Below are positions 14,884 through 30,296 of a stretch of 44,849 nt of DNA, piece by piece. The stretch's first letter is position 1; each line of letters opens with the position of its first letter. The notes under the pieces were generated by a model, which did no database searches, was not told the origin of the DNA, and saw only the letters and a list, made by a program, of their open reading frames with translations. The position numbers and the translations under genes are program-made. The DNA is from Dehalococcoidales bacterium (lineage in GTDB: Bacteria > Chloroflexota > Dehalococcoidia > Dehalococcoidales > RBG-16-60-22): NCBI GenBank assembly GCA_028712355.1, contig JAQTQH010000005.1, positions 1 through 44,849 on the forward strand. Reading direction: 5' to 3'.

Positions 14884-17244
14884 ATGGATAAGAAAAGTCT
14901 GGAAGTCTTGGAGTTTCCCAAGGTAAAAGAAATCCTGGCGGAATTCACCTCTTTTTCTGCCAGCCGGGAGCTTGCCCTCGAGCTTCAACCGTTGACCAGT
15001 TACGAGACGGTGGTGCGGCTTCTGAGGCAATCTGCAGAGGCGCGGCTGCTGCTGGAGCTTGAGCCGGGATTCACCATCGGTGGTGTCTTCGATATTCGCC
15101 CGCTGGCAGCGATGGCGGCGCGGGAAAAGATACTTGAGACGCTTGACCTGCTTCAGGTACAGCAAGTACTGATTGCGAGCCGGCACCTGCGCGGTAATCT
15201 CGCCAGAGTTGCTTCGGATTTTCCCATGCTGTGGGAGATTGCGCAGGGCATTACAGAACTCGGGCAGATTGAGCGCAACATCAGTCACTGCATCGGGCTT
15301 ACCGGTGAGGTGCTCGATACCGCTTCGCCGCAACTGGCAACCGTACGCCGCAAACTCAATGACATGAAACAGCAGCTCATGGAACGTCTGGAGGCGTTCA
15401 TGGGTTCAGCAAAAGGGCAGAAGGTAGTCCAGGAAGCCATCATTACCGAAAGGGAAGGACGATATGTTATCCCGGTCAAAGTGGAAGCCCGCCGTGAGGT
15501 TAAGGGTATCGTCCACGACGTCTCCAATACCGGTGCTACCGTCTTTGTGGAGCCGTGGGCGACTGTCGAACTGGGCAATACACTGCGTGAGCTTTCCCGT
15601 GAAGAGCAGCGGGAAATAGAGCGCATCCTGGGCAGTCTTTCCGGCGAAATCGGCGAGCATGAGGGAGAAATCGTACAGAGCATCACACGTATTGCGGAAC
15701 TGGACCTGGCGCTGGCGAAAGCACGCTACGCCCGGCGCTTCCGCGCCAGTGAACCTAAAGTTACCGAATTTGATGGTAATACCTCCGGCGGGATTATACG
15801 GCTGGCGGAGGCAAGGCATCCGCTCCTTGCCGATAAAGCGGTGCCGCTTTCAGTGGAAATCGGGAGGGAATTTTCGGCGCTGATTATCACCGGACCTAAT
15901 ACCGGCGGCAAGACGGTGGCTTTAAAAACGGTGGGGTTGCTCAGTTTGATGGTGCAGTCCGGCTTGCCTATTCCAGCGCTGCCGGAAAGCCAAATGCCCG
16001 TTTTCGATGGCATTTTCGCAGACATCGGTGACGAGCAAAGTATTGAGCAGACTCTATCCACGTTCAGCTGGCACATGAACAACATTGCCCGCATTATTAA
16101 TCATGCCTCGCGGAAAAGCCTGGTGCTTCTCGACGAATTAGGTACGAGCACCGACCCCGCTGAGGGCTCCGCACTGGCACGCTCACTGCTGATGTATTTC
16201 CTCGCGCGCGGGGCATTGATAGTCGCCACTACCCACTTCAGCGACCTCAAGGCTTTTGCCCATACGACCAGAGGGATGCAAAATGCCTCACTGGACTTTG
16301 ACCCGGTTACGCTGGCGCCGACTTACCATTTGGTGCTCGGCATCCCCGGCGGCAGCAATGCCCTGGCAACGGCGGCGCGGCTGGGTCTGCCTGCCGAGAT
16401 TATTGATAATGCCCGCAGCATGCTGGCGAAAGGTACCCAGGAATTTGAAACCCTGCTTGCCGACCTGATAACGGAGAAGCATAAGATGGAGGATTTGAGT
16501 GCAACTCTGGCGCAGGAAAAGGCCGAAATAGAAAAGCGCCTTAGCGAACTGGAAAATGAATTCAAGCGGGTCAAATCGGAGGAAAGGCGCATCGTTCTGG
16601 AGACCCGCGACCGCGTCGTAAGTGAAGCCGCCGAACTGCATAAAGCGCTGCACGACGCGGAAGCCGATTTGCGTAAAGAAAAGTCACGTGAGAGGGTTGC
16701 TGAAACGCGCAAGGTGCTGGCGGCAATCCAGAAGCAATTGCAGGGAACAACCTGGAAACCAGCTCCCGGCGAAGAGATGGCGGAAGAAGCTGCCGCCCGA
16801 ATCGATGTCGGTAATACGGTCTGGGTTAAAGAAGCTGGTATTCATGGCACCGTCCTCGCGGTCAATGAAGATAAGCGGCAGGTGGAAGTGCAAATCGGGG
16901 CGGCGAAAATACGACTCGGACTGGACGGCGTGGAAAAAACGGCACCGCCAGAGGCCAAGATGTCTCCGCATTATACCGTTATCCAGCGACCGTCCGGCAG
17001 GATAGTCGCCCGTGAACTCGACCTGCGCGGCAAGCGGGCGGAAGCGATTGAGATGGAACTGGATACCTATTTGAACGATGCCGCCGTCGCCGGTTTGGGT
17101 GAGGTGCGCATCGTGCATGGCTACGGCACCGGCGCCGCCCGTAAGACTGTCCGCGAGCGGCTGGCGGGGCATCAACTGGTCAAGTCATTCCGCCCCGGGG
17201 AACGTGGCGAGGGCGGTGACGGCGTTACGGTGGTCAGATTATAG
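14884..17244 (+). CDS. mutS2: Endonuclease MutS2 (MutS ATPase core plus C-terminal Smr domain)
   Basis: 786 aa. Walker A is GPNTGGKT and the DELGTSTDP motif is present. A long coiled coil follows, then the C-terminal Smr domain (LDLRGKRAEEA..VRIVHGYGTG). Confidence 0.93.
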   Translation: MDKKSLEVLEFPKVKEILAEFTSFSASRELALELQPLTSYETVVRLLRQSAEARLLLELEPGFTIGGVFDIRPLAAMAAREKILETLDLLQVQQVLIASRHLRGNLARVASDFPMLWEIAQGITELGQIERNISHCIGLTGEVLDTASPQLATVRRKLNDMKQQLMERLEAFMGSAKGQKVVQEAIITEREGRYVIPVKVEARREVKGIVHDVSNTGATVFVEPWATVELGNTLRELSREEQREIERILGSLSGEIGEHEGEIVQSITRIAELDLALAKARYARRFRASEPKVTEFDGNTSGGIIRLAEARHPLLADKAVPLSVEIGREFSALIITGPNTGGKTVALKTVGLLSLMVQSGLPIPALPESQMPVFDGIFADIGDEQSIEQTLSTFSWHMNNIARIINHASRKSLVLLDELGTSTDPAEGSALARSLLMYFLARGALIVATTHFSDLKAFAHTTRGMQNASLDFDPVTLAPTYHLVLGIPGGSNALATAARLGLPAEIIDNARSMLAKGTQEFETLLADLITEKHKMEDLSATLAQEKAEIEKRLSELENEFKRVKSEERRIVLETRDRVVSEAAELHKALHDAEADLRKEKSRERVAETRKVLAAIQKQLQGTTWKPAPGEEMAEEAAARIDVGNTVWVKEAGIHGTVLAVNEDKRQVEVQIGAAKIRLGLDGVEKTAPPEAKMSPHYTVIQRPSGRIVARELDLRGKRAEAIEMELDTYLNDAAVAGLGEVRIVHGYGTGAARKTVRERLAGHQLVKSFRPGERGEGGDGVTVVRL

Positions 17245-17263
17245 GTGAAAGGTAGGTTCAGCC

Positions 17264-18007
17264 ATGCTTGTAGCGAGAGATTTTGCCTTGACCCGCCATA
17301 AGATGCTGGCATACCTCGCGGCGTTGGCCGCGGATGACTCTTTTACAGCAACGCGCTACGTTCCCGCCGGAGCATTACTGCCGGGAATCAGAAAAATACT
17401 TGAGGACGCACCGGAACTCCTGTTGCCGGAAATATCAGAGCGAGTAATTGGTTCATTTAACGGCGCAGCGCTTTTCTGGGGTAACAGCAGGACATGCCTC
17501 GTCCTGCCGCCCTTTCCGATTGATAAAGCCGAATCTTCAAAAGGCTGCAATATTGCATCGCTGAACGTTCAACTAACCAGAGATTACAATATCGGTATAG
17601 TGCTTATCCGGCTGGGGGCTTACGCCATCGGACTCTGCCGCGGCGAAAACATTGTGAAAAGCAAAGTGGGGACGGGGCTGGTGCACGCCCGGCACCGTCA
17701 GGGCGGCTCTTCTTCTCACCGGTTTGAGCGCCACCGCAAGAAACAAATCGAATATTTCCTGACGAGGGTCTGCGAACACGTCAGGGAGATACTGGAATCG
17801 GAGGCAAAGACTATCGATTATTTTGTCTTCGGTGGTTCTAGCACGGCAATCCAGTTTTTGCAGGAACAATGTTCGTTTCTGGGGCAGTTTGAGAAACGCA
17901 GTCTGCTGCCTTTATTGACATTGCCGGAGCCACGGCAGGCGGTACTCGCCGAAGCCGTTGCGCGAGTCTGGTCGAGCCGGGTCATTGAATGGCGAACGGA
18001 AAACTAG
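17264..18007 (+). CDS. Vms1/VLRF1-like (eRF1-fold) putative peptidyl-tRNA hydrolase
   Basis: 247 aa, starting 20 nt after the mutS2 stop. The central segment IGIVLIRLGAYAIGLCRG..VHARHRQGGSSSHRFERHRKKQIEYF resembles the Vms1/ANKZF1 VLRF1 core (HRYTxRxKQGGSQS..RY). I recognised it from memory of that motif only. Confidence 0.45.
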   Translation: MLVARDFALTRHKMLAYLAALAADDSFTATRYVPAGALLPGIRKILEDAPELLLPEISERVIGSFNGAALFWGNSRTCLVLPPFPIDKAESSKGCNIASLNVQLTRDYNIGIVLIRLGAYAIGLCRGENIVKSKVGTGLVHARHRQGGSSSHRFERHRKKQIEYFLTRVCEHVREILESEAKTIDYFVFGGSSTAIQFLQEQCSFLGQFEKRSLLPLLTLPEPRQAVLAEAVARVWSSRVIEWRTEN

Positions 18008-18086
18008 CCGCGCCGCTTTACCCCGATTGTACAAAGAGACTTACCTTGCTATAATCCTAAAAGACCGAAAAGATAAAAGAACCGTA

Positions 18087-18518
18087 ATGAATTGTCCGAA
18101 CTGTAAGCATGACATGATTGTGGTGGAGTACCACCAGATAGAGTTAGACTACTGCCCTAACTGCCGCGGCGTCTGGTTTGATTCCGGGGAACTGGAGCTT
18201 TTCCTTACGGCGGGGAAGCTGGGCAATGCACGGGAAACGGTGGCGGGGATTCTTATCATGCCGGAGCGGGAAACGCCGCATGCTGTCAGGAAGTGCCCTG
18301 TCTGCCACCAAGGCATGAAAAGAGTGGGCATCGGACATCCCCAGGTACATCTTGATGTCTGCCGCGGGGGTGACGGACTCTGGTTTGATGGTGGCGAGAT
18401 ACATCAACTGGTCAAACAACTGACCGGGCAGCCTTCGGTTACGGCAGACGTCCAGCAAGGAATCGTTAGTTTTGTAAACGAAGTATTTCAAGCTGAGCCC
18501 CGCAGCAATGAGCATTAA
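18087..18518 (+). CDS. Zinc-ribbon (zf-TFIIB-like) domain protein, two repeats
   Basis: Two copies of CPxC..(L/V)D.C..C.G+WFD.GE (CPNCKH..DYCPNCRGVWFDSGELE; CPVCHQ..DVCRGGDGLWFDGGEI). The start is taken at the ATG at 18087. Confidence 0.6.
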   Translation: MNCPNCKHDMIVVEYHQIELDYCPNCRGVWFDSGELELFLTAGKLGNARETVAGILIMPERETPHAVRKCPVCHQGMKRVGIGHPQVHLDVCRGGDGLWFDGGEIHQLVKQLTGQPSVTADVQQGIVSFVNEVFQAEPRSNEH

Positions 18519-18618
18519 TTACGATGACCATGATTATTGGAATTATGGCCATTTTAATAGTGCTGGCTATTCTTATGGCTCTCCGATAGCTTTATAATTA
18601 TTTATTTAGGAGGTGTTT

Positions 18619-19182
18619 ATGATAATCCTGTATATTATCCTCGGTATTCTGGCGATACTTGTGATTTTCTTCATTGGGGCGTATAACGGGCTTGTCGGGC
18701 TGCGCAACCAGACCAAGAACGCTTGGGCGCAGATTGACGTCCAGCTTAAGAGAAGGTATGACCTCATTCCCAATTTGGTGGAGACTGTCAAGGGCTACCA
18801 GATTCATGAACGGGAGACGCTGGAAGCGGTGACCAGGGCGCGCAATGTGGCGCAGCAGGCATCTTCTGCAAGCGTCGCAGAACGCTCCAAAGTTGAGGCA
18901 GAACTGAGTTCGGCACTGGCCAGACTGCTCGTCGTGGTGGAAGCCTATCCCGACCTTAAAGCTAACCAGAATTTCTTGGCACTCCAGGAAGAACTCACTT
19001 CCACCGAAAACAAAATAAGCTTTGCCCGCCAGTATTATAATGACTCGGTACTCAAGTACAATAACCAGACCCAGATGTTCCCGTCCAATATCGTTGCCGG
19101 CATGACGGGCTTCAAGTCGGGCGATTTTTTTGAAGTTACCGTTACAGAAGAAAGGGCAGCGCCAAAAGTAAAATTTAATTAG
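18619..19182 (+). CDS. lemA: LemA family membrane protein
   Basis: It has an N-terminal TM helix, then YNGLVGLRNQ..AWAQIDVQLKRRYDLIPNLV..YPDLKAN..YYN, the LemA signature. The ATG at 18619 lies 5 nt after AGGAGG; the tracked GTG at 18613 overlaps the SD. Confidence 0.85.
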   Translation: MIILYIILGILAILVIFFIGAYNGLVGLRNQTKNAWAQIDVQLKRRYDLIPNLVETVKGYQIHERETLEAVTRARNVAQQASSASVAERSKVEAELSSALARLLVVVEAYPDLKANQNFLALQEELTSTENKISFARQYYNDSVLKYNNQTQMFPSNIVAGMTGFKSGDFFEVTVTEERAAPKVKFN

Positions 19183-19201
19183 TTAACGGAAAGTTAGAAT
19201 C

Positions 19202-20416
19202 ATGTGGGAGCAAATCAGGGCGAACCGGATGCGGTCGGCAGTGCTCGTTGCCTTCATGGGCGGGCTGCTGTTGGCGGTAGGTTATTTCCTCGGTCTTGCT
19301 TTTCTGGATGATGCTTATGCCGGGCTAATCATTGCAGCGCTGGTCTGGTTGGTAATGAATCTAGTCGCCTATTTCCAGGGCGATAGTATTCTGCTTTCCG
19401 TTTCCGGCGCCCGGAAAATCAGCCAGGACGACCTGCCGCGCCTTTATAACATAGTCGAAGAAATGAAGATAGCCTCAGGGCTGGCGAAAATGCCGGATAT
19501 TTATATTATCGACGACCCGGCACCTAATGCCTTTGCAGTGGGACGTTCGCCAGAGAAAGCATCCGTGGCGGTAACGACCGGTTTGCTCCAGCGCCTCAAC
19601 CGCGATGAACTACAGGGCGTTATCGGGCATGAGGTCGCTCATATTGTTAACCGAGATGTTCTGTTGATGTCACTGGCGGGTGTGCTGCTCGGAACGATAG
19701 TCCTGCTCGCATGGTACGCCAGTCGGATGATGCTCTACGGTGGTATGTCCGGCGGAAGGAAAAGTTCCCGTTCCGGAGGCGGTGGTGGGGGACAGGCACA
19801 AATAATCATTTTAGTAGTGGGGCTGGTCCTGATGATACTGGCGCCGATTGCCGCCCAGTTGCTGTATTTCGCCATCTCGCGCAAACGTGAATATCTTGCC
19901 GATGCTTCTTCAGCCCTGTACACACGCTACCCGGAAGGACTGGCATCGGCGCTGGAGAAGATTTCCGCCACGCCTCAACAGTTGAGGACTGCTAATAAGG
20001 CAACTGCTCCGATGTTTACCGTGAACCCATTCCGTCGCGAAGGCAGGGCTGCTGCCGACCTGAGCAGCACTCACCCGCCTATTTCAGACCGGGTACGAAT
20101 TCTCCGCTCTATGGCGGGAGTCTCCGCCGCCGATTACGAGCGTGCCTATGCGAAGATTAAGGGGAGGGGAGGGGTTGTTCCTGCCTCGGCGCTGAAAAGT
20201 ACACCGGAATCCGCCGCGATACGTCCGCCTTCAGGGGAACCCGGCGAAGATACGGCGGCGCGGGTCCAGCGCACGCGGGAAGCCTCCGACGCAGTATGGC
20301 GCACGGGTAGCTATAAAACCATCGATTGTGATTGTGGTACGAAACTCAAAGTGCCGCCCAGCTTAAAGGGCGCCCGCGTTCAATGCCCGCACTGCGGACG
20401 GATTCACACCGTTTAG
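19202..20416 (+). CDS. M48-family (HtpX-like) zinc metalloprotease with C-terminal zinc ribbon
   Basis: 404 aa with TM helices. The HEXXH motif is HEVAHIVNRD. A Gly-rich loop is present, and the C-terminus carries CDCG..x14..CPHCG. Confidence 0.85.
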   Translation: MWEQIRANRMRSAVLVAFMGGLLLAVGYFLGLAFLDDAYAGLIIAALVWLVMNLVAYFQGDSILLSVSGARKISQDDLPRLYNIVEEMKIASGLAKMPDIYIIDDPAPNAFAVGRSPEKASVAVTTGLLQRLNRDELQGVIGHEVAHIVNRDVLLMSLAGVLLGTIVLLAWYASRMMLYGGMSGGRKSSRSGGGGGGQAQIIILVVGLVLMILAPIAAQLLYFAISRKREYLADASSALYTRYPEGLASALEKISATPQQLRTANKATAPMFTVNPFRREGRAAADLSSTHPPISDRVRILRSMAGVSAADYERAYAKIKGRGGVVPASALKSTPESAAIRPPSGEPGEDTAARVQRTREASDAVWRTGSYKTIDCDCGTKLKVPPSLKGARVQCPHCGRIHTV

Positions 20417-21276: not shown

Positions 21277-22455
21277 TTACGAGAGCAGGGAAGGAATATC
21301 TTTAGAGGCGTCTTCAATGACCTTGAGCTTGGTGGCGGTATCTTCCTGGCGCTTCCTCAACTCCGGGATAAGACTGGTAGATTTGGTGAAGTAGTTCCTG
21401 ACCTTTTCGACATCACTTAACTCGGACATGATTACGGTCACATCAACCGAACCCTTTTCGCGGGGGTAATCGCCGTTGCGGATGACGGCTTCCGGCGTCA
21501 CATCACGCATATAATCGCCGAGTTCCTTGACCATATCCATGTTCAACTCTTTGGCCGGACCGGAGACAAGGTACATCGCCCGGCGGGAATCCGCTGGATT
21601 GCACTTTAGGGAAAGTTCGCTCAGGGCTTCGTCCATTGCCTGGATACCCCTCTGGATTTCTGTGCCTTTCTTGCGGAAATCGCCTCCGGAAGTGGCAGGC
21701 AAACGGAAAAGCGGCACTTCAGAGCGTCCGTGACCTATTGCCGTCCAGCCGACGAGCGTCTGGATGATATCACCCGCATCCAGCAGCTTGGCGCCGATGT
21801 GTTTGGCTTTCTTTTCCTCACCGGCGCAGAGCAGGTTATAGAACGGTTCCACAATCAGGGAGTTTATTTTTGACAGGTTGAATTTGAGTGAAGAATCTTT
21901 ACGGACATAGCGCTGGTTGTCAAACAGGAAGACAGCATCGGCTACGGAATAGCAGGATTTAAGGCAGGTAGCCACGTTGTAGGCGGTCCGCTCTTCGGTG
22001 GTTTCTTCATGTTCAAAAGGCAGGACGATAAGATCATAGACCGGTTTGTCAATATAGCGTTGCTTCAATGCCTGGGTGATAACAGCAATTGCTCCGGAGC
22101 CCGTGCCGCCCGCCGCACTTGCCGCCAGCAGGAAGGCATCCGCCTCGAACAGTTTCTTGGCGGTTCGGATGGCATCTACCACTTTATCGCTGTCTTCTTT
22201 GGCGACCTCAGCGCCTACTTCGTTGATTTTACCCACGCCATGACCGCCAGTCTTTCTGCCGCCGATGAGGATTCGGTTACGGTAACTCTTGGGGATGACG
22301 GAGAGCCCGCTTAAATCAGCGGCATCGGTATTAACAGCAAAAGCTCCCATTATGATTTCCATGCCACGTCGGCTGTGGGCTCGATCGTTTAAACGGGCGA
22401 ATTCATCGACAATTCTGCCGCCGCATTGCCCCAGACCAACAACAACTAATTTCAT
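21277..22455 (-). CDS. Tubulin/FtsZ-superfamily GTPase, CetZ/tubulin-like (paralogue A)
   Basis: 392 aa. The T1 loop GLGQCGGRI is the tubulin/CetZ GQxGG type, not the FtsZ GGGGxN type. The T4 signature is AAGGTGSG and the T7-like segment is LLDAGDIIQTL. The C-terminal tail ends KDIPSLLS. Confidence 0.85.
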   Translation of the reverse strand: MKLVVVGLGQCGGRIVDEFARLNDRAHSRRGMEIIMGAFAVNTDAADLSGLSVIPKSYRNRILIGGRKTGGHGVGKINEVGAEVAKEDSDKVVDAIRTAKKLFEADAFLLAASAAGGTGSGAIAVITQALKQRYIDKPVYDLIVLPFEHEETTEERTAYNVATCLKSCYSVADAVFLFDNQRYVRKDSSLKFNLSKINSLIVEPFYNLLCAGEEKKAKHIGAKLLDAGDIIQTLVGWTAIGHGRSEVPLFRLPATSGGDFRKKGTEIQRGIQAMDEALSELSLKCNPADSRRAMYLVSGPAKELNMDMVKELGDYMRDVTPEAVIRNGDYPREKGSVDVTVIMSELSDVEKVRNYFTKSTSLIPELRKRQEDTATKLKVIEDASKDIPSLLS

Positions 22456-22498
22456 GCACCACCTCTAATCATAAATTTCATACTCTAATTTTGCCTTT

Positions 22499-22528
22499 AT
22501 TCTAAGCATACCTATTGAATATTGTCAA
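22499..22528 (-). promoter_or_regulatory. Sigma70-like promoter of tubulin-like gene A
   Basis: Minus strand TTGACA - 18 nt - TAGAAT, about 45 nt upstream of the ATG. Confidence 0.5.
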
Positions 22529-22607
22529 TTTAATCTTCAAAATCAAGCTTTAATCTCGGGGTTGATAGCTTGGTATAAAATATTTTCAATATAGGAATTT
22601 AGTCTTA

Positions 22608-22636
22608 TTGCAAAAGTACAGTGCGTGTAATAGAAT
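22608..22636 (+). promoter_or_regulatory. Sigma70-like promoter of the 719-aa repeat protein gene
   Basis: TTGCAA - 17 nt - TAGAAT, about 45 nt upstream of the GTG at 22682. Confidence 0.45.
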
Positions 22637-22681
22637 TATGGCGCAACCTTAAGAAGGCTCGTAAGGAAAAAGGTAAAGGCA

Positions 22682-24841
22682 GTGTCTCCCGAAACATTAG
22701 AAAATTTGGAAGGCAATATCGGGGAATTTGAAAAGGCCGTCGCGCGGGCGGAAAAGTTGAACCGCGCCGCCAAAGAGGCGTCTGAAGCATCGGCGCGGGC
22801 GGCTCAGGATGCGGCACTCCGTGCGGAGAAGATAAGCCGGGAAGCCAAGGAGGCTGCGGAAGACGCAGCCAGGTCTGCCAGTGAAGCAGCTACCCGTGCG
22901 GAAGGAGTGGCGAAAGAAGCCCGCAAAGCAGCGGAAGCATCCATGAAGGCAGCCCAGGAAGTGGTGCAGCAGGCAGAGAAAATAAGTCGGGAATCCAGGG
23001 AAGCTGCCGAAGCCACGATAAAAAACGCCCGGGAAGCCATTGCTAAAGCAGAAGAAACCGCCCGCGTTCCCAAAGATACTGCGGAAACAGTAGCCCGGGC
23101 TTTTGATGAAGCTATCAAACGCGCTGAAAAAATGAGCCACGAGGCGATGGCGGCTGCGGAATCGTCGCTTACCGCTTCTCAAGAAGGATTAAGCCACGTT
23201 CAGGAAATGAGCCGGGAAGCTAGGGAAAGAGCGGAAGCTGCCAGAATGGCATCCCAAGAAATGTTAGAGAGAGCGGAGAACGCCAACCGGGAAGCGAGAG
23301 AGGCCACAGACATGGCGACTAAAATGACGCGGGAGACGCTGACTCGCGCCGAGCGGATGAGTAAGTCCGTTCGTGACGCCGCGGATGCGAACAGCCGTAC
23401 GGCGAGAGAGGTGGCGGCGCGCGCGGAAAAAATCAGCAACGAAGCTCGTGAGACTGCGGAAGGTTCGGCACGGGTTGCTCAGGAAACCGCTTCTCGCGCG
23501 GAGAACACCAGCAAAGTCGCTAAAGATATTGCGGATACCTCACTGAGAACGGCTCAGGAAGTACGAACACAGATTGAGGCCCTGGAACGGGCAGCGAAAG
23601 AACAGACGGAAGCATCCGCCCGGACTGTGCAACAGGCAATGCGAAAAGCCGATGAAATCAACCAGGAACTAAAAGTAAGCGCCGAAGCTTCCAACAGAGC
23701 GTATCAGGAAGCAACTGAAAAGGCAACCCGGTCGGCTCAGGAAGCGACCGAGACAATGATGAAGACCTCACAGGAGGCAGTCTCGCGTGCCGAGAAAATA
23801 GTCCAGGAATTTAATGAAACGGTAGCCACGATTCGTAAATCCTTTGAGGACGCTATCCGTCAGGCTCAACAGGCGAGCCAGGAAGCTAAGCAGACTTCAG
23901 AAATGTCTGCCAGAGCTTCTCAGGAAGCCATCGCGCGTATCGAGATAATCAATAAAGAGGCAAAGGAAGCCGCGGAAGCTTCTATCAAGGCATCTAATGA
24001 TGCGGCAGAACTGGCTATGAGAGCTTCTCAGGAAGCCATCGCGAAGGCGCAAATAACGGGCCGGGAATCACGAGCGGCGGCTGAGGCTGCCGCAAAAACG
24101 GCGGAAGAGGCAGCCCAGGCATCTCAGAAGGATTCACAGGCGGCAATCGCCCGTGTCGGAGAGATGATTGCCATGATGCAAAAAACCGCTCAGGATGCGG
24201 CGCAGGCGGTTAATGAAGCAACCGCTGCTGCCGTAAGGGCCTCCGAAGACTCGGTTAAGCAAATGGGAGACTTAAGCCGTCAATCTCGTGCCGCGGCAGA
24301 AAATTCGGCACAGGCGTCGCAACAGGCTGCGGATACCATGGCAAAATCGACCCGCGAATCTACGGAAGCCACAATTAAGGCGGTAACGGAAGCTACCGAA
24401 GCAGCCGCCAGAATTACCCGGGAGGCTGCCCGGCAATCGATCAATGCTTTTGAAAATGCCATTCGTACTATAGAAACGGCGGGCAACGCGGCGCATAACG
24501 CCGCAGAGACTTCATTACAATCCTTTATTAATATGCCAAATGACGCTCCGTCATTAATGGAGGCTTCGGTAGTTCAGAGTACTCCGCTCCTGGCTGCTCC
24601 CGATGATGAGGGGACGGAGATTCTGGAAGAAGAAATGACTCCGGAAGTAGACCGTGAAGAAAATGATGACGTCCCGGAAAAAGAGATTACTAAGACCGTG
24701 AAGGCAGAAAACAGCGGAAACAAGAAGGGGGGAGCAGCATCACGCAAAAAGATTGAAGCCCGGCTGGCGTTCCTTTCCAAGATGTATGAAGCAAAACAGG
24801 CAAATCAGGAGGAAGAAGATACCGAAGCAGAGGACGCCTGA
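22682..24841 (+). CDS. Large Ala/Glu/Arg-rich helical repeat protein (719 aa) with a 25-residue repeat array and an acidic C-terminal tail
   Basis: A long open frame with a GTG start after a purine-rich AAGGAAAAAGG. It has 13 consecutive in-phase 25-aa repeats (consensus about RAEKiSrEArEAAEaSxxxAqEaxx), then units of 22, 25, 25, 36, 36 and 36 aa, and a 104-aa non-repetitive tail. No signal peptide or TM segment is apparent. Confidence 0.7.
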   Translation: MSPETLENLEGNIGEFEKAVARAEKLNRAAKEASEASARAAQDAALRAEKISREAKEAAEDAARSASEAATRAEGVAKEARKAAEASMKAAQEVVQQAEKISRESREAAEATIKNAREAIAKAEETARVPKDTAETVARAFDEAIKRAEKMSHEAMAAAESSLTASQEGLSHVQEMSREARERAEAARMASQEMLERAENANREAREATDMATKMTRETLTRAERMSKSVRDAADANSRTAREVAARAEKISNEARETAEGSARVAQETASRAENTSKVAKDIADTSLRTAQEVRTQIEALERAAKEQTEASARTVQQAMRKADEINQELKVSAEASNRAYQEATEKATRSAQEATETMMKTSQEAVSRAEKIVQEFNETVATIRKSFEDAIRQAQQASQEAKQTSEMSARASQEAIARIEIINKEAKEAAEASIKASNDAAELAMRASQEAIAKAQITGRESRAAAEAAAKTAEEAAQASQKDSQAAIARVGEMIAMMQKTAQDAAQAVNEATAAAVRASEDSVKQMGDLSRQSRAAAENSAQASQQAADTMAKSTRESTEATIKAVTEATEAAARITREAARQSINAFENAIRTIETAGNAAHNAAETSLQSFINMPNDAPSLMEASVVQSTPLLAAPDDEGTEILEEEMTPEVDREENDDVPEKEITKTVKAENSGNKKGGAASRKKIEARLAFLSKMYEAKQANQEEEDTEAEDA

Positions 24842-24966: not shown

Positions 24967-25482
24967 GTGCCGAGTACATCAAAAGAACATGCCAAGAAAA
25001 GCGCCCCGGCGGAAGGGAAAGCAGCGCAGGCGATTGAAGAGCTCAAGGGACTGGCTGCTGGAGTTGAAGAACCCGCTTCCAATCCATTAGATGAAGTCCT
25101 GGGACAGGCGGAGCGGGCATATGCCGCTTACATGGAAGCGGAACGACAGGTCGCCCGGGCTTACCGCGAAAATGAACTGCGAGTTACCGGTGCTTATGGT
25201 AAAACCGAGCAGCAACTTCAGAAAGATTACGAGAAGGCGATAACCCAAGCATTGCAAGCGCGGAACGAAGCAATCGAGCAGGCAATGCGCAATCGAGAGG
25301 ACACCATCCAGCATGCGGAATCCGATTTCAGGATTGCCCGAGAAGAGGCGGAAAAGGCTTATGAGACGGCAACGTCAGAAGCCATAATGTCGCGCCAGGA
25401 AGGCATTGAGAAAGCCCAGAAATCCCGCGATGATACTATTGCGCAGGCATGGGCGATTTATTCCAAGATGATGTCGCGGTAA
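24967..25482 (+). CDS. Small helical protein (171 aa), hypothetical
   Basis: GTG start directly after AGGAGGTAAGGA. The sequence is predicted helical and E/A/R/Q-rich, with an internal duplication (EKAITQALQARNEAIEQA.. / EKAYETATSEAIMSRQEGIEKA..). Confidence 0.6.
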   Translation: MPSTSKEHAKKSAPAEGKAAQAIEELKGLAAGVEEPASNPLDEVLGQAERAYAAYMEAERQVARAYRENELRVTGAYGKTEQQLQKDYEKAITQALQARNEAIEQAMRNREDTIQHAESDFRIAREEAEKAYETATSEAIMSRQEGIEKAQKSRDDTIAQAWAIYSKMMSR

Positions 25483-25519: not shown

Positions 25520-25578
25520 AACAAACGTCCCCGCTTTGTTCTGGGATCTGCCGGGATAGCAAAGCGAGGACGTTTGTT
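25520..25578. terminator. Long-stem hairpin between convergent genes (bidirectional terminator candidate)
   Basis: AACAAACGTCCCCGCTTTG (25520-25538) pairs with CAAAGCGAGGACGTTTGTT (25560-25578) with one mismatch. T-rich sequence follows on the plus strand. Confidence 0.5.
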
Positions 25579-25583
25579 TATTC

Positions 25584-26759
25584 TTATAGCAGAGATGGGA
25601 TATCGTGAATGGTAACGTCGATGTCTTTCTGGCGGCTGGCGATGCCTTCCTGCCGTTTCTTGAGCGCCGAGATAAGTGAAATTGCTTTGGTAAAGTAGTT
25701 CCGGATTTTTTCGACATCAATTAGCTCGGAGAGAATCACGGTAACATCAAAAGACCCTCGCTCACGGGGGTAATCACCGCTCCGGATAACTGCTTCCGGC
25801 GCCATGCTCTTGAGGTAGGTGCCCAGTTCTTTGACAAGATCCATATTTATTTCTTTGCCGGGGGCTGAAATCAGGTACATGGCGCGTTTGCAATCCGTGG
25901 GATTGCACTTCAGGGAAAGATTGCTGATTGCCTGGTCCAGCGCGCGCGTACCTTTTTGAGTGTCGGTAGCTTTGTCCCGGAAATCGCGCTTTTCTCCGAA
26001 GAAGCTCTTGAAAAAGGAACTCTCCGACCGCCCGAAGCCAAGGGTCGTCCAGCCAACCAGCGTCTGGATGATATCACCGGCGTCCAGCATCTTGGCGCCG
26101 ATATGCTTGGGGTCCTTCTCTTCACCGGCGCAGAGGAGGTTGAAGAACGGCTCGACGATGATGTGGTTAATCTTTGAGAGATTGCCCAGTATCGGAGCGT
26201 CCTTCATGGCGAAGCGCTGATTATCTACCAGAAAGATAGCATCAGCCACCAGGTAGCTTGACTTGAGACAGGTAGCCACATTGTAGATGGTGCGGTCTTC
26301 TGTGATTTCCTCGTGCTCAAAAGGCAGGACAATCAGATTGTAGACCGGTTTATCAATATAGCGCTCTTTTATCTGCTGGGTCATTACCGGTATAGAACCG
26401 GAACCGGTGCCACCGCCCGCGGATGCGCAGAGCAGAAAAGCGTCGGTTTCCGCGAAGCGCTTGGCCATACGGATGGTTTCGATGACCTTATCTGCATCCT
26501 CGCGGGCGACCTCGGTGCCGAGTTCATTTATTTTGCCCACGCCATGTCCACCGGTTTTACGGCTGCCGATTAGAATGCGGTGCTCGTAATCAGGGCGTAT
26601 CGCCGTCAGTCCACTTAAATCCGCGACATCAGTATTGACCGCGTAAGACCCGGTGATAATATCCAGGTTGCGGAAAGTATGCGCCCGCGCATTCAAACGG
26701 GCGAATTCATCAGCGATTCTACCGCCGCACTGTCCCAGACCAACAACAATCAGTTTCAT
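25584..26759 (-). CDS. Tubulin/FtsZ-superfamily GTPase, CetZ/tubulin-like (paralogue B)
   Basis: 391 aa, colinear with paralogue A and roughly two-thirds identical by eye. It has GLGQCGGRI, GGGTGSG and MLDAGDIIQTL motifs. The C-terminus is HDIPSLL. Confidence 0.85.
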   Translation of the reverse strand: MKLIVVGLGQCGGRIADEFARLNARAHTFRNLDIITGSYAVNTDVADLSGLTAIRPDYEHRILIGSRKTGGHGVGKINELGTEVAREDADKVIETIRMAKRFAETDAFLLCASAGGGTGSGSIPVMTQQIKERYIDKPVYNLIVLPFEHEEITEDRTIYNVATCLKSSYLVADAIFLVDNQRFAMKDAPILGNLSKINHIIVEPFFNLLCAGEEKDPKHIGAKMLDAGDIIQTLVGWTTLGFGRSESSFFKSFFGEKRDFRDKATDTQKGTRALDQAISNLSLKCNPTDCKRAMYLISAPGKEINMDLVKELGTYLKSMAPEAVIRSGDYPRERGSFDVTVILSELIDVEKIRNYFTKAISLISALKKRQEGIASRQKDIDVTIHDIPSLL

Positions 26760-26788: not shown

Positions 26789-26818
26789 ATTTTACGCATC
26801 TAAAGGAGAGTATGTCAA
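26789..26818 (-). promoter_or_regulatory. Sigma70-like promoter of tubulin-like gene B
   Basis: Minus strand TTGACA - 18 nt - TAAAAT, about 30 nt upstream of the ATG. The architecture matches the promoter of gene A. Confidence 0.5.

Positions 26819-26930: not shown

Positions 26931-30296
<3,366 letters not shown>

What the first reader, a model, noticed from the sequence alone, without database searches (positions are those of the whole stretch)
22745..24526. Phase-perfect 25-residue repeat array (13 consecutive copies, then 36-residue units) in a 719-aa Ala/Glu/Arg-rich protein
From residue 22 I counted 13 back-to-back units of exactly 25 aa: RAEKLNRAAKEASEASARAAQDAAL / RAEKISREAKEAAEDAARSASEAAT / RAEGVAKEARKAAEASMKAAQEVVQ and so on. 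One 22-aa unit follows, then two 25-aa and three 36-aa units; 36 = 25 + 11 suggests an underlying hendecad/heptad mix. The DNA copies are degenerate, so the array is old and held by selection on the protein, not a recent slippage product. The 104-aa tail (24527-24838) is non-repetitive. It contains an amphipathic stretch (RKKIEARLAFLSKMYEAK) and ends in an acidic run (EEEDTEAEDA). I do not recognise the family. Its position, divergent from a tubulin-like gene, suggests a filament-associated ruler, bundler or membrane tether, analogous in role to EzrA or ZapA-type proteins.
Basis: seen in the sequence. Interest (0 to 1): 0.7.

Follow-up and report, generated by a model that had tools for sequence, protein, structure and literature searches.

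The report
Helical rod protein between paired tubulins
A real, conserved 719-residue protein built from 25-residue helical repeats sits between two archaeal-type (CetZ-like) tubulin genes in Dehalococcoidales bacteria, and is most likely an uncharacterised partner of a tubulin cytoskeleton.

Summary
Residues 22-346 of the ORF at 22682-24841 (+) are 13 in-phase 25-residue units. Their self-similarity far exceeds shuffles, and the DNA copies are degenerate. Units spaced by 22, 25 and 36 residues follow, then a variable acidic linker, a conserved amphipathic helix and an acidic tail.

The gene lies in a four-gene module: CetZ-like tubulin A, the repeat protein, a 171-aa hendecad helix protein, and CetZ-like tubulin B. 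Of 80 Dehalococcoidales species loci, 59 carry a complete repeat-protein homologue beside the tubulins and 5 more are cut by a contig end. Lag 25 is the strongest period in every homologue, and the hydrophobic period is 3.585 +/- 0.008.

The gene is under purifying selection (dN/dS about 0.1). The window protein matches no curated family. Some orthologues weakly match Pfam Phasin_2 in the rod only.

Best reading: an alanine-cored, weakly supercoiled coiled-coil rod that scaffolds or cross-links the tubulin filaments. The conserved N-terminal third and C-terminal helix would be the docking sites, and the tubulins' FtsZ-like KDIPSLL tails the likely handles. The link to tubulin is shown. Binding, oligomeric state and cellular role are inferred. 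A ruler with one unit per subunit is geometrically unlikely.

The parts
21277..22455 (-). Tubulin A (392 aa), CetZ-like. Transcribed divergently from the repeat gene. C-terminal tail ...SKDIPSLLS.
   Evidence: Pfam Tubulin 4.7e-33 and CetZ_C 2.5e-17. The best solved relatives are 4b46, 4b45 and 3zid. It forms a monophyletic orthologue clade, and it is the copy next to dnaX in most loci.
22456..22681 (.). AT-rich divergent intergenic region with promoter-like boxes for both genes.
   Evidence: TTGACA-18-TAGAAT at 22528..22499 (-) and TTGCAA-17-TAGAAT at 22608..22636 (+). These are consensus matches only. No iteron-like repeats are present.
22682..24841 (+). Repeat-rod protein gene (719 aa plus stop).
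   Evidence: ORF. dN/dS is 0.10 against the L003 orthologue. Homologues of 520-911 aa occur in 59 of 80 species loci. The identical protein is also on a Logan contig from run SRR22315508.
22682..22744 (+). N-terminal head, residues 1-21, holding the start of the conserved motif NIxxFEKAVARAExLSRAA.
   Evidence: E17, V20, A21, A23, E24 and L26 are invariant in 24 aligned orthologues. N-termini are listed.
22745..23719 (+). 13 in-phase 25-residue units (residues 22-346). Hydrophobic period 3.57.
22895..22969 (+). Unit 3 (residues 72-96): an exact one-unit insertion specific to this lineage.
   Evidence: 92% of the other 23 aligned orthologues are gapped over exactly these 25 columns.
23069..23071 (+). 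Codon of Pro130, an invariant helix break in unit 5. F141, G169 and L170 are invariant or nearly invariant nearby.
   Evidence: Alignment A2 invariant columns. The AlphaFold2 model breaks the helix at residues 126-130.
23720..24526 (+). Second half of the rod (residues 347-615), with units spaced 22, 25 and 36 residues. Hydrophobic period 3.60.
24527..24742 (+). Variable acidic, proline-containing linker (residues 616-687), predicted disordered.
   Evidence: Identity to orthologues is 0.18. pLDDT is below 50 and no helix is predicted at 617-684. Net charge of residues 616-680 is -14.
24743..24796 (+). Conserved C-terminal amphipathic helix RKKIEARLAFLSKMYEAK (residues 688-705). Family motif K[IM]EARLExLAxMYExKK.
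   Evidence: R694, L695, L698, M701, Y702 and E703 are invariant. The motif is found in all 60 family sequences scanned (C-termini listed). It is also present in the divergent members P0126, P0127 and P0139. AlphaFold2 predicts a helix at 685-715.
24797..24838 (+). Acidic C-terminal tail (residues 706-719).
   Evidence: Net charge of residues 703-719 is -7. The family mean charge of the last 20 residues is -2.8.
24967..25482 (+). Companion 171-aa helical protein with an 11-residue (hendecad) period and AY every 11 residues.
   Evidence: Homologues in 55 of the 80 species loci. Lags 11, 22, 33 and 44, hydrophobic period 3.66. Conserved motifs. AlphaFold2 pLDDT 80 with helices 40-75 and 81-170. 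No profile relation to the rod protein.
25520..25578 (.). 19-nt inverted repeat between the convergent ends of the 171-aa gene and tubulin B. Likely a bidirectional terminator.
   Evidence: The arms are 95% complementary with 21 nt between them. The function is inferred.
25584..26759 (-). Tubulin B (391 aa), CetZ-like paralogue, 69% identical to tubulin A. Tail ...HDIPSLL.
   Evidence: Pfam Tubulin 2e-31 and CetZ_C 2.8e-16. 69% identity to tubulin A. It forms a separate monophyletic clade. A promoter-like box lies at 26818..26789.

Best explanation
The 719-aa product is a cytoplasmic, almost entirely alpha-helical rod. It is a dedicated partner of a pair of CetZ-like tubulins in Dehalococcoidales.

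Structure (inferred). Each 25-residue unit (consensus RAEEISREAREAAEASAKAAQEAIS, 11+11+3) completes seven helical turns. This puts an alanine-rich stripe with occasional I/L/V on one face and a ladder of i/i+4 Glu-Arg/Lys pairs on the other. The period stays at about 3.585 residues per turn, so the stripe is nearly straight. The rod therefore probably forms a weakly supercoiled, alanine-cored coiled coil, most likely a dimer, as in the hendecad rods of FilP and Scy. Fully extended, about 595 residues would span roughly 90 nm.

Docking (inferred). Specificity would lie in three best-conserved parts: the N-terminal third, up to and around the invariant Pro130 hinge; the C-terminal helix R-L-x-x-L-x-x-M-Y-E on a disordered acidic linker; and the co-encoded 171-aa hendecad protein. 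I propose that these dock onto filaments of tubulin A and B. Both tubulins end in an FtsZ-like C-terminal peptide, KDIPSLL. The rod would scaffold, bundle or space those filaments under the membrane of these bacteria, which are reported to lack a cell wall.

Shown here: the repeat anatomy, purifying selection, family-wide conservation, and the linkage to tubulin genes.

Inferred only: coiled-coil oligomeric state, physical binding, and a role in cell shape or division.
For: Anatomy:
- 13 in-phase units, with lag-25 similarity far above shuffles.
- Unit consensus and spacings of 25, 22, 11, 36 and 47 residues.
- Hydrophobic period 3.57 and 3.60 in the window protein, and 3.585 +/- 0.008 in 60 homologues. 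The power at 25/7 is 64.8, against a maximum of 10.4 in shuffles.
- AlphaFold2 (single sequence, low confidence) gives helix over residues 3-616 with a break at 126-130, disorder at 617-684, and a helix at 685-715.

A real gene under selection:
- dN/dS 0.10.
- Units are positionally orthologous: same-position identity 0.45-0.71 against 0.31-0.39 for other positions.

Linkage to tubulin:
- The same four-gene module occurs in L001 and L002.
- 59 of 80 GTDB species loci have a complete homologue, and 5 more are truncated by contig ends.
- The usual gene order is GAPDH, tubulin B, 171-aa gene, rod gene, tubulin A, dnaX. Lineages with a single tubulin have GAPDH, tubulin, dnaX.
- Tubulin A and B form separate clades. 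Loci without the rod that have full flanks fall outside the A clade, except L024.
- The distant member P0139 lies beside a single CetZ-like tubulin whose tail is SIPSLLD.

Docking candidates:
- Invariant N-terminal and C-terminal motifs.
- KDIPSLL tails on both paralogues in nearly all loci.

Coiled-coil reading:
- Alanine-rich cores are typical of dimeric hendecad rods such as FilP and Scy (PMC9858780).
- The same 25-residue unit fills the segment between the PAS and HisKA domains of the histidine kinases P0001 and P0003. From general knowledge, that position is a parallel dimeric helix.

Tubulin identity:
- Pfam Tubulin plus CetZ_C.
- The best solved relatives are 4b46, 4b45 and 3zid, which I recall as the CetZ structures.
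- CetZ-like sequences in Dehalococcoidia are noted in PMC9871819.
Against: - No binding, localisation or expression data exist for this protein.
- The structure model is low confidence (pLDDT 60, pTM 0.30), and no multimer prediction was possible.
- Large hydrophobic residues occupy only about 3 of 25 positions, so the seam is weak for a classical coiled coil.
- 9 of 24 orthologues match Pfam Phasin_2 at E <= 0.01, and 4 of the 10 scanned individually score above its gathering score. Reversed sequences largely lose the match. The rod therefore also resembles surface-active amphipathic proteins.
- The divergent member P0126 has no tubulin within its 4.2-kb contig.
- L024 carries tubulin A without the rod gene.
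- The 25-residue unit (3.75 nm) does not match a 4.0-4.4 nm tubulin subunit repeat.
Confidence: 0.5

Rival explanations
1. Self-assembling cytoskeletal element. The rod polymerises on its own, like an intermediate filament, into filaments or a lamina, as crescentin, FilP and Scy do. The 171-aa hendecad protein would be a co-polymer or cap. The tubulins would position or remodel this polymer rather than being decorated by it.
For: - The layout is a short head, a long non-heptad alanine-cored rod, and a tail.
- The apolar face is wide, about 160 degrees, with the bulky residues (positions 5, 17 and 24) at its edges. That could support more than one helix-helix interface. This is my reading of the unit profile.
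- The 171-aa protein gives a weak, sub-threshold match to the Scy model (E = 0.0055, 14 bits against a cut-off of 1040).
- FilP and Scy precedent.
Against: - No DivIVA-like or intermediate-filament-type head domain is detected.
- Rod length varies from 520 to 911 aa, and whole units come and go. This is easier to tolerate in a spacer than in a lattice-forming subunit.
- Conservation is concentrated at the two ends, as expected for docking sites.
Confidence: 0.2
2. Surface-coating protein of the phasin, apolipoprotein or LEA type. Its long amphipathic helices would lie flat on a membrane or on a hydrophobic inclusion. The neighbouring tubulins would be functionally unrelated, or involved only in membrane remodelling.
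For: - Phasin_2 hits in 9 of 24 orthologues at E <= 0.01 (best E = 2e-11, 44 bits against a cut-off of 24.9). Reversed controls mostly lose them.
- Profile hits to apolipophorin-III, apolipoprotein A-IV and BAR domains in the PDB at E = 0.01-0.9.
- 11-residue sub-periodicity and a nearly straight stripe (3.585), as in helices that bind lipid surfaces. The comparison itself is from general knowledge.
Against: - The window protein has no Phasin_2 hit at E <= 0.1, and 15 of 24 orthologues have none at E <= 0.01.
- The matched stretch moves along the rod between orthologues. In two of the four proteins above threshold, no single stretch passes on its own.
- NCBIfam returns no match for any of the 24 members apart from an unrelated MG_279/MG_280 model in 2.
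- The apolar face is mostly Ala, Ser and Thr, with mean 18-mer hydrophobicity 0.01.
- Of the 20 other large ORFs scanned (1-21138 and 26931-28971), none is a PHA synthase or granule gene; ORFs beyond 28971 were not scanned.
- Synteny with tubulins is conserved in at least 59 species.
Confidence: 0.15
3. Single stable alpha-helix (ER/K-type) spacer or ruler. It would be monomeric and hold its two ends a fixed distance apart between the tubulin filament and another structure.
For: - A continuous i/i+4 ladder of E3-R7-E11 and R10-E14-K18-E22-R1' runs through the unit consensus, and alanine content is 24%.
- Length changes occur in whole units.
Against: - Charged residues make up only about 33% of the protein. 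From general knowledge, ER/K helices are well over half charged.
- A strong, conserved amphipathic stripe is present. From general knowledge, single alpha-helix domains lack one.
- Length varies nearly two-fold between species, which fits poorly with a fixed ruler.
Confidence: 0.1
4. Part of a TubZ-type DNA-segregation system, in which the rod acts as an adaptor or modulator like TubY.
For: - Tubulin-family genes lie beside small non-enzymatic helical proteins.
- In the distant locus L085, the module neighbours prophage-tail genes and an SMC_N-type ATPase gene.
Against: - The module has no DNA-binding (helix-turn-helix) gene, and the four intergenic regions have no iteron or centromere-like repeats.
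- The setting is core chromosome: GAPDH and dnaX flank the module in most loci, and RecA, RNase Y and MutS2 are in the window.
- The tubulins match CetZ_C and give only a sub-threshold match to Tubulin_2 (17 bits against a gathering score of 27).
Confidence: 0.03

Closest known systems
FilP and Scy of Streptomyces (long non-heptad coiled-coil cytoskeletal proteins)
   Same: Very long rods built from hendecad-containing repeats with alanine-rich cores. The layout is a short head, a rod and a tail. They belong to a cytoskeletal context (PMC9858780; unit profile).
   Different: - The repeat here is 25 residues (11+11+3) with period 3.57-3.60, not pure hendecads (3.67).
- No DivIVA-like N-terminal domain is detected.
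- The partner is a tubulin pair, not the DivIVA polarisome.
- The phylum is different (Chloroflexota).
- No sequence homology.
EzrA, ZapA/ZapB and SepF (accessory proteins of FtsZ filaments)
   Same: Non-enzymatic helical proteins that act on a tubulin-family filament. Several of them recognise the conserved C-terminal peptide of FtsZ (general knowledge). The tubulins here end in a similar peptide, KDIPSLL.
   Different: - No Pfam match to any of these families.
- No transmembrane anchor, unlike EzrA.
- The rod is far longer and strictly periodic.
- The gene is genetically embedded between the tubulin genes.
- The filament is CetZ-like, not FtsZ.
CetZ of Euryarchaeota (for the flanking tubulins)
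   Same: Pfam Tubulin plus CetZ_C on both paralogues. The best solved relative is 4b46 at E = 1.2e-44 over the full length. A CetZ-like group in Dehalococcoidia was noted in PMC9871819.
   Different: - The host is bacterial.
- The genes are paired paralogues with two dedicated helical partner genes.
- The papers searched report no such partner genes for these CetZ-like proteins.
Tropomyosin and nebulin (periodic side-binders or rulers of actin)
   Same: A long helical protein whose sequence period could present regularly spaced surface charges to a polymer.
   Different: Their periods match the actin subunit spacing. Here 25 residues (3.75 nm) or 36 residues (5.4 nm) do not match a 4.0-4.4 nm tubulin repeat (inference). 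There is no homology.
Phasins (Pfam Phasin_2) and exchangeable apolipoproteins
   Same: Alanine- and glutamate-rich amphipathic helices. A subset of orthologues passes the Phasin_2 threshold. There are weak profile hits to apolipophorin-III.
   Different: - The window protein does not match.
- It is 4-7 times longer than a typical phasin (typical size from general knowledge).
- It has conserved terminal motifs outside the phasin model.
- It is linked to tubulin genes.
- Apart from an unrelated MG_279/MG_280 model in 2 members, NCBIfam returns no match for the 24 members.

Membership tests
Pfam Phasin_2 (PF09361) | Whole-protein score at or above the gathering score of 24.9 bits | tested here: not met
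   The window protein has no hit at E <= 0.1. Among orthologues, 9 of 24 hit at E <= 0.01. Of the 10 scanned individually, 4 score above the gathering score (29.9-44.4 bits). The match falls at different rod positions in different orthologues. Reversed sequences give one weak hit of 17.9 bits.
Phasin (NCBIfam library) | A match to any NCBIfam phasin model | tested here: not met
   The only NCBIfam family matched by any of the 24 members at E <= 0.01 is MG_279/MG_280 (2 members); no phasin model appears.
Phasin (functional context) | Neighbouring PHA synthase or granule genes | tested here: not met
   The 20 other large ORFs scanned, in 1-21138 and 26931-28971, are housekeeping or redox genes. 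ORFs beyond 28971 were not scanned, and the whole genome was not examined.
Canonical heptad coiled coil | Hydrophobic period of 3.5 residues | tested here: not met
   The period is 3.57 in residues 22-346 and 3.60 in residues 347-615. The family value is 3.585 +/- 0.008.
Hendecad-type coiled-coil rod (FilP/Scy class) | 11-residue periodicity with small (Ala) core residues | tested here: inconclusive
   An 11-residue sub-period is present: unit = 11+11+3, and spacings of 11, 22, 36 and 47 occur. The core is alanine-rich. However, the period is 3.57-3.60, not 3.67. The oligomeric state was not determined.
FilP/Scy/DivIVA-like proteins | DivIVA-like N-terminal domain | tested here: not met
   No DivIVA Pfam hit in the window protein or in 24 orthologues.
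EzrA | N-terminal transmembrane anchor and a match to the EzrA family | tested here: not met
   The N-terminus is acidic and hydrophilic (MSPETLENLEGNIGEFEK). There is no EzrA Pfam hit.
ZapA | A match to the ZapA domain | tested here: not met
   No hit.
LEA group 3 (Pfam LEA_4) | 11-mer LEA_4 repeats detected by the family model | tested here: not met
   No LEA_4 hit in the window protein or in 24 orthologues.
Single alpha-helix (ER/K) domain | Very high charge content and no hydrophobic stripe | tested here: not met
   Charged residues D, E, K and R total about 33%. There is a strong amphipathic stripe with power 64.8, against a shuffle maximum of 10.4. An i/i+4 salt-bridge ladder is present.
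CetZ (flanking tubulins) | Tubulin/FtsZ GTPase domain plus the CetZ C-terminal domain | tested here: met
   Both domains score above their gathering scores in both paralogues. The GGTGSG signature is invariant. The best solved relative, 4b46, aligns over residues 1-385.
CetZ (flanking tubulins) | Archaeal (euryarchaeal) host | tested here: not met
   The loci come from Dehalococcoidales or Chloroflexota MAGs. The window carries bacterial genes such as RNase Y, RecA/RecX and acVLRF1.
FtsZ (flanking tubulins) | NCBIfam ftsZ equivalog score of at least 295 bits | tested here: not met
   63.7 and 56.5 bits.
TubZRC partition system | An adjacent DNA-binding TubR and centromere iterons | tested here: not met
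   The module has no helix-turn-helix gene. The intergenic regions have no direct-repeat arrays.

The most novel reading that the evidence does not exclude
One subclade of Dehalococcoidales, which is reported to lack a cell wall, may run a CetZ-type tubulin cytoskeleton that came with its own two-protein 'MAP' system. This would be a rod of 25-residue repeats whose length is tuned by gaining or losing whole units, plus a hendecad co-factor. Tubulin B and these two genes were gained together as a block beside the ancestral tubulin. The rod would bind the lattice of tubulin A/B heteropolymers periodically and set filament spacing or disc-shaped cell geometry. That would be a bacterial analogue of microtubule-associated or tropomyosin-like lattice readers, with no sequence relative outside this lineage.
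Probability: 0.2. Interest if true: 0.8.

Novelty: new variant of a known kind. Interest (0 to 1): 0.58.

Why it matters
Dehalococcoidia include the organohalide-respiring bacteria used in bioremediation. They are reported to lack peptidoglycan and to be disc-shaped (general knowledge; the disc shape is also noted in PMC8163811). How they keep their shape and divide is poorly understood.

CetZ is the archaeal cell-shape tubulin. A CetZ-like group in Dehalococcoidia has so far been mentioned only in passing (PMC9871819).

This finding gives that group a concrete, conserved genetic module: two paralogous tubulins with FtsZ-like tail peptides, and two dedicated helical proteins with defined candidate docking motifs. 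That makes the question testable by co-polymerisation assays, complex prediction and cryo-tomography.

It also adds a clean natural example of a 25/7 (3.57) coiled-coil periodicity that is kept constant across a family while the number of units drifts.

Tried and rejected
1. Word-indexed homology search with the protein, and later with a 24-sequence profile. It returned only histidine kinases and a few other proteins with look-alike rods.

2. Exhaustive search of 1.84 billion representatives. It gave 37 hits, mostly fragments, and none below 1e-30. Full-length relatives clearly exist on contigs. The family had to be recovered through synteny with the tubulin instead.

The single-sequence model has pLDDT 60. 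Foldseek against the PDB gave nothing at E <= 0.001; the top matches were long helical hairpins such as chemoreceptors and Smc arms. I treat this as uninformative.

4. A profile search of PDB sequences gave designed helical bundles, chemoreceptors and apolipophorin-III. This is compositional or periodic similarity, not homology.

5. Profile-profile comparison of the rod with the 171-aa protein gave probability 1%, so they are unrelated.

6. Membrane-targeting test of the C-terminal helix with a HeliQuest-style discriminant gave a family mean D of 0.88, in the 'possible' zone. Hydrophobicity and moment are much lower than for the MinD and FtsA controls. The result is inconclusive and leans against.

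7. Centromere or iteron search in the four intergenic regions found none.

8. Rfam found no RNA family in the window.

9. I tried to tie the module to cultured Dehalococcoides mccartyi. PMC8163811 reports a tubulin GTPase (btf_0551) and a nearby hypothetical protein (btf_0548) that are abundant in pure culture. Whether btf_0548 is a homologue remains unknown.

10. One-unit-per-subunit ruler: rejected on geometry (3.75 nm against 4.0-4.4 nm).

11. L024 as a tubulin B/A recombinant: rejected. Its tubulin is A-like along its whole length.

Full report
1. THE OBSERVATION

The ORF at 22682-24841 (+) starts with GTG and encodes 719 aa. A purine-rich stretch lies just upstream of the start. The protein is 24% Ala and 15% Glu, with about 8% each of Ser and Arg.

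Printed in rows of 25 from residue 22, it shows 13 in-phase units (residues 22-346). The mean BLOSUM62 score at lag 25 is 1.75. In 1000 shuffles, the best score over lags 5-59 averaged 0.229 (sd 0.053, maximum 0.496).

At the DNA level there is no tandem repeat. In-register unit identity is 49%, and 32% at third codon positions. The tail is non-repetitive.

2. A REAL GENE AND A CONSERVED FAMILY

The two large protein databases returned almost nothing useful. The hits were histidine kinases with look-alike rods and short fragments.

The family was found through its neighbours. A homologue of the adjacent tubulin led to a 2.3-Mb Dehalococcoidia contig (L001) with the same four genes. That contig encodes a 670-aa protein with the same N-terminus (MSP..GNIG.LEKAVARAE) and C-terminal motif (EARLESLARMYE).

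A scan of GTDB species genomes with a tubulin alignment returned 80 loci. All but a few are labelled Dehalococcoidales, Dehalococcoidaceae, Dehalococcoidia or Chloroflexota.
- 59 loci carry a complete homologue of 520-911 aa between two tubulin genes.
- 55 loci also carry the 171-aa gene.
- In 5 more loci the rod gene is cut by the contig end but is visible as antisense ORFs with lag-25 periodicity.

Lag 25 is the top self-similarity lag in all 61 homologues recovered; these include L001 and L002, which were fetched separately from the 80-locus scan.

Against the closest orthologue (L003), dN/dS values are:
- rod: 0.10
- 171-aa protein: 0.05
- tubulins: 0.02-0.03

In the same comparison, protein identity is 65% for the rod and 94% for the tubulins.

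3. ANATOMY OF THE ROD

Pooling 1390 units from 60 proteins gives the consensus R-A-E-E-I-S-R-E-A-R-E / A-A-E-A-S-A-K-A-A-Q-E / A-I-S. This is two 11-residue half-units (xAE......A.E) plus three residues. Start-to-start spacings are 25 (903), 22 (162), 11 (116), 36 (50) and 47 (36).

The hydrophobicity spectrum peaks at 3.57 residues (25/7) in residues 22-346 and at 3.60 (36/10) in residues 347-615. Across 60 homologues the peak is 3.585 +/- 0.008. The power at 25/7 is 64.8, against a maximum of 10.4 in shuffles.

On a 25/7 helical wheel, positions 2, 5, 9, 12, 13, 16, 17, 20, 23 and 24 form an apolar face about 160 degrees wide. Most are Ala, Ser or Thr; positions 5, 17 and 24 are I/L/V. The opposite face carries i/i+4 pairs: E3-R7-E11 and R10-E14-K18-E22-R1'. 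This is my reading.

The undistorted alpha-helix has 3.63 residues per turn (PMC9858780). The stripe therefore winds only about a third as much as in a heptad coiled coil.

Units are positionally orthologous. Same-position identity between orthologues is 0.45-0.71, against 0.31-0.39 for other positions. Unit 3 (residues 72-96) is an exact one-unit insertion that is gapped in 92% of the other 23 aligned orthologues.

Conservation is highest at the two ends:
- Residues 1-171 (the head and the first six 25-residue blocks) average 0.55-0.71 identity per block. Pro130 and Phe141 are invariant, and Gly169 and Leu170 nearly so.
- The C-terminal helix averages 0.58, with R694, L695, L698, M701, Y702 and E703 invariant.
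- The linker (616-684) averages 0.18.

It predicts helix over residues 3-616 with breaks at 126-130, 288-293 and 460, disorder at 617-684, and a helix at 685-715. Only the break at 126-130 coincides with an invariant residue. Foldseek against the PDB found nothing significant.

4. THE NEIGHBOURS

Both flanking genes (21277-22455 - and 25584-26759 -) match Pfam Tubulin and CetZ_C above threshold. They fall far below the NCBIfam ftsZ cut-off. Their best solved relative is 4b46, at E = 1.2e-44 over the full length, followed by 4b45 and 3zid. I recall these as the CetZ structures.

The two paralogues are 69% identical. They keep the GGTGSG signature and an invariant D226-x-x-D229 in the region that, by pattern, corresponds to the FtsZ T7 loop (the mapping is my inference). 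They form separate orthologous clades. Nearly all end in KDIPSLL. From general knowledge, this resembles the FtsZ C-terminal peptide (DIPxFL) that recruits FtsA, ZipA, SepF and EzrA.

The 171-aa protein (24967-25482 +):
- is a hendecad helix with lags 11, 22, 33 and 44 and period 3.66
- has conserved motifs
- gives a confident long-helix model, pLDDT 80
- is unrelated to the rod by profile comparison

Each of the four genes has a promoter-like box. A 19-nt inverted repeat separates the convergent 171-aa and tubulin B genes.

5. EVOLUTION OF THE MODULE

The usual order is GAPDH, tubulin B, 171-aa gene (reverse strand), rod gene (reverse strand), tubulin A, dnaX. Lineages with a single tubulin have GAPDH, tubulin, dnaX, and their tubulin falls outside the A clade. 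Tubulin B, the rod gene and the 171-aa gene therefore appear to have been added as a block beside the ancestral tubulin.

Other arrangements:
- Four loci (L062, L068, L071, L080) have the rod gene but not the 171-aa gene.
- Two (L067, L073) have a tandem, more divergent second tubulin and no rod gene.
- L024 has a full-length A-type tubulin directly after GAPDH, with no rod gene. This is either a secondary loss or an assembly problem.

A distant family member, P0139 (487 aa), lies convergent to a single CetZ-like tubulin ending in SIPSLLD on a 120-kb metagenome contig. It has lag 25, period 3.59 and the C-terminal motif NRLEYLAKMY. Another distant member, P0126, has no tubulin within its 4.2-kb contig.

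6. WHAT IT IS NOT

The window protein has no Pfam or NCBIfam match.

Among 24 orthologues, 9 match Phasin_2 at E <= 0.01. Of the 10 scanned individually, 4 score above the gathering score. The match lies in the rod, at varying positions, and is sometimes only the sum of sub-threshold stretches. Reversed sequences mostly lose it. NCBIfam returns no match for the 24 members except an unrelated MG_279/MG_280 model in 2 of them. I read this as convergent sequence pattern between alanine- and glutamate-rich amphipathic helices. I still keep a surface-coating role as a rival.

There is no match to EzrA, ZapA, DivIVA or LEA_4. There is no transmembrane segment and no signal peptide; the N-terminus is acidic.

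The C-terminal helix is less hydrophobic and less amphipathic than the MinD and FtsA membrane-targeting sequences.

The intergenic regions have no iterons and the module has no DNA-binding gene, which argues against a TubZRC-like partition system.

7. MECHANISM

Shown: a conserved, selected, helical, strictly periodic rod protein that is genetically locked to paired CetZ-like tubulins.

Inferred: it forms an alanine-cored, weakly supercoiled coiled coil. Two lines point that way.
- FilP and Scy are dimers with alanine-rich hendecad cores.
- The same 25-residue unit fills the segment between the PAS and HisKA domains of the histidine kinases P0001 and P0003. That segment is normally a parallel dimeric helix (general knowledge).

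Also inferred: the conserved N-terminal third, the tethered C-terminal helix and the 171-aa protein are the interaction surfaces for tubulin A/B filaments or for their KDIPSLL tails. The variable-length rod would act as a spacer, cross-linker or scaffold.

A ruler with one unit per subunit is unlikely, because 25 residues span 3.75 nm against 4.0-4.4 nm per tubulin subunit.

8. NOVELTY

The papers available mention CetZ-like sequences in Dehalococcoidia only in passing (PMC9871819). One proteomics study reports that a tubulin GTPase and a nearby hypothetical protein are abundant in D. mccartyi pure cultures (PMC8163811). I found no description of the rod family, of the 171-aa family or of the four-gene module.

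The general kind, a tubulin-family filament with helical accessory proteins, is known. This family, its 25/7 periodicity and its bacterial CetZ setting are new.

Noticed in passing
window 21277-22455 (-) and 25584-26759 (-): There are two paralogous CetZ-like tubulins (69% identical), not one. Both end in a conserved KDIPSLL peptide resembling the FtsZ C-terminal adaptor-binding peptide. They form separate orthologue clades across about 55 species.
   Followed up: yes
window 24967-25482 (+): A 171-aa helical protein with strict 11-residue periodicity (AY every 11 residues, period 3.66). It co-occurs with the rod gene in 55 of 80 loci and matches no known family.
   Followed up: partly
P0001, P0002, P0003; L084 4756-7374: Response-regulator/PAS histidine kinases from JGI metagenomes carry about 13-15 copies of essentially the same 25-residue unit (e.g. 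KAEEEVRLAREDAEAIKTSSQEAIT) between the PAS and HisKA domains. The unit is therefore a reusable long helical spacer outside the tubulin module.
   Followed up: partly
L024 8728-11179: One species has an A-type tubulin (94% identical to its relatives' tubulin A along its whole length) directly after GAPDH, with no tubulin B, rod gene or 171-aa gene. This is either a clean loss of the three-gene block or a MAG assembly artefact.
   Followed up: partly
L067 and L073, 8764-11176: Two lineages have two tubulin genes in tandem. The upstream copy is much more divergent (about 43% identity, tail GDELPTLD). There is no rod gene. This may be an independent heterodimer-like arrangement.
   Followed up: no
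L085 1-10642: The distant rod-like gene and its single CetZ-like tubulin lie next to prophage-tail, HicB and NYN genes and an SMC_N/AAA_23 ATPase gene. This hints that some versions of the pair may sit on or beside mobile DNA.
   Followed up: no
window 25520-25578: A 19-nt inverted repeat (95% complementary, 21-nt spacer) lies between the convergent 3' ends of the 171-aa gene and tubulin B. It is probably a bidirectional terminator.
   Followed up: no
window 14884-20416 (+): A run of same-strand genes: MutS2 with an Smr domain; an Actinobacteria/Chloroflexi Vms1-like release factor (acVLRF1); a zinc-ribbon protein; LemA; and an M48 peptidase with a C-terminal zinc-ribbon-like CxxC motif. From general knowledge of MutS2 and Vms1, the MutS2-acVLRF1 adjacency suggests a module for rescuing stalled ribosomes.
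   Followed up: no
window 22682-24841; Full-length members of the rod family are encoded on many public contigs and are called as genes. Yet neither large protein search tool retrieved them; only fragments and look-alikes came back. Families this repetitive may be systematically under-represented in clustered databases.
   Followed up: partly
P0160, P0161: Other uncharacterised proteins combine an N-terminal Ala/Glu rod with 36- or 47-residue spacing (period about 3.6) with an unrelated conserved C-terminal domain (...LENLRV[IM]WSGGS...). This suggests a wider class of near-straight alanine-cored rods.
   Followed up: no
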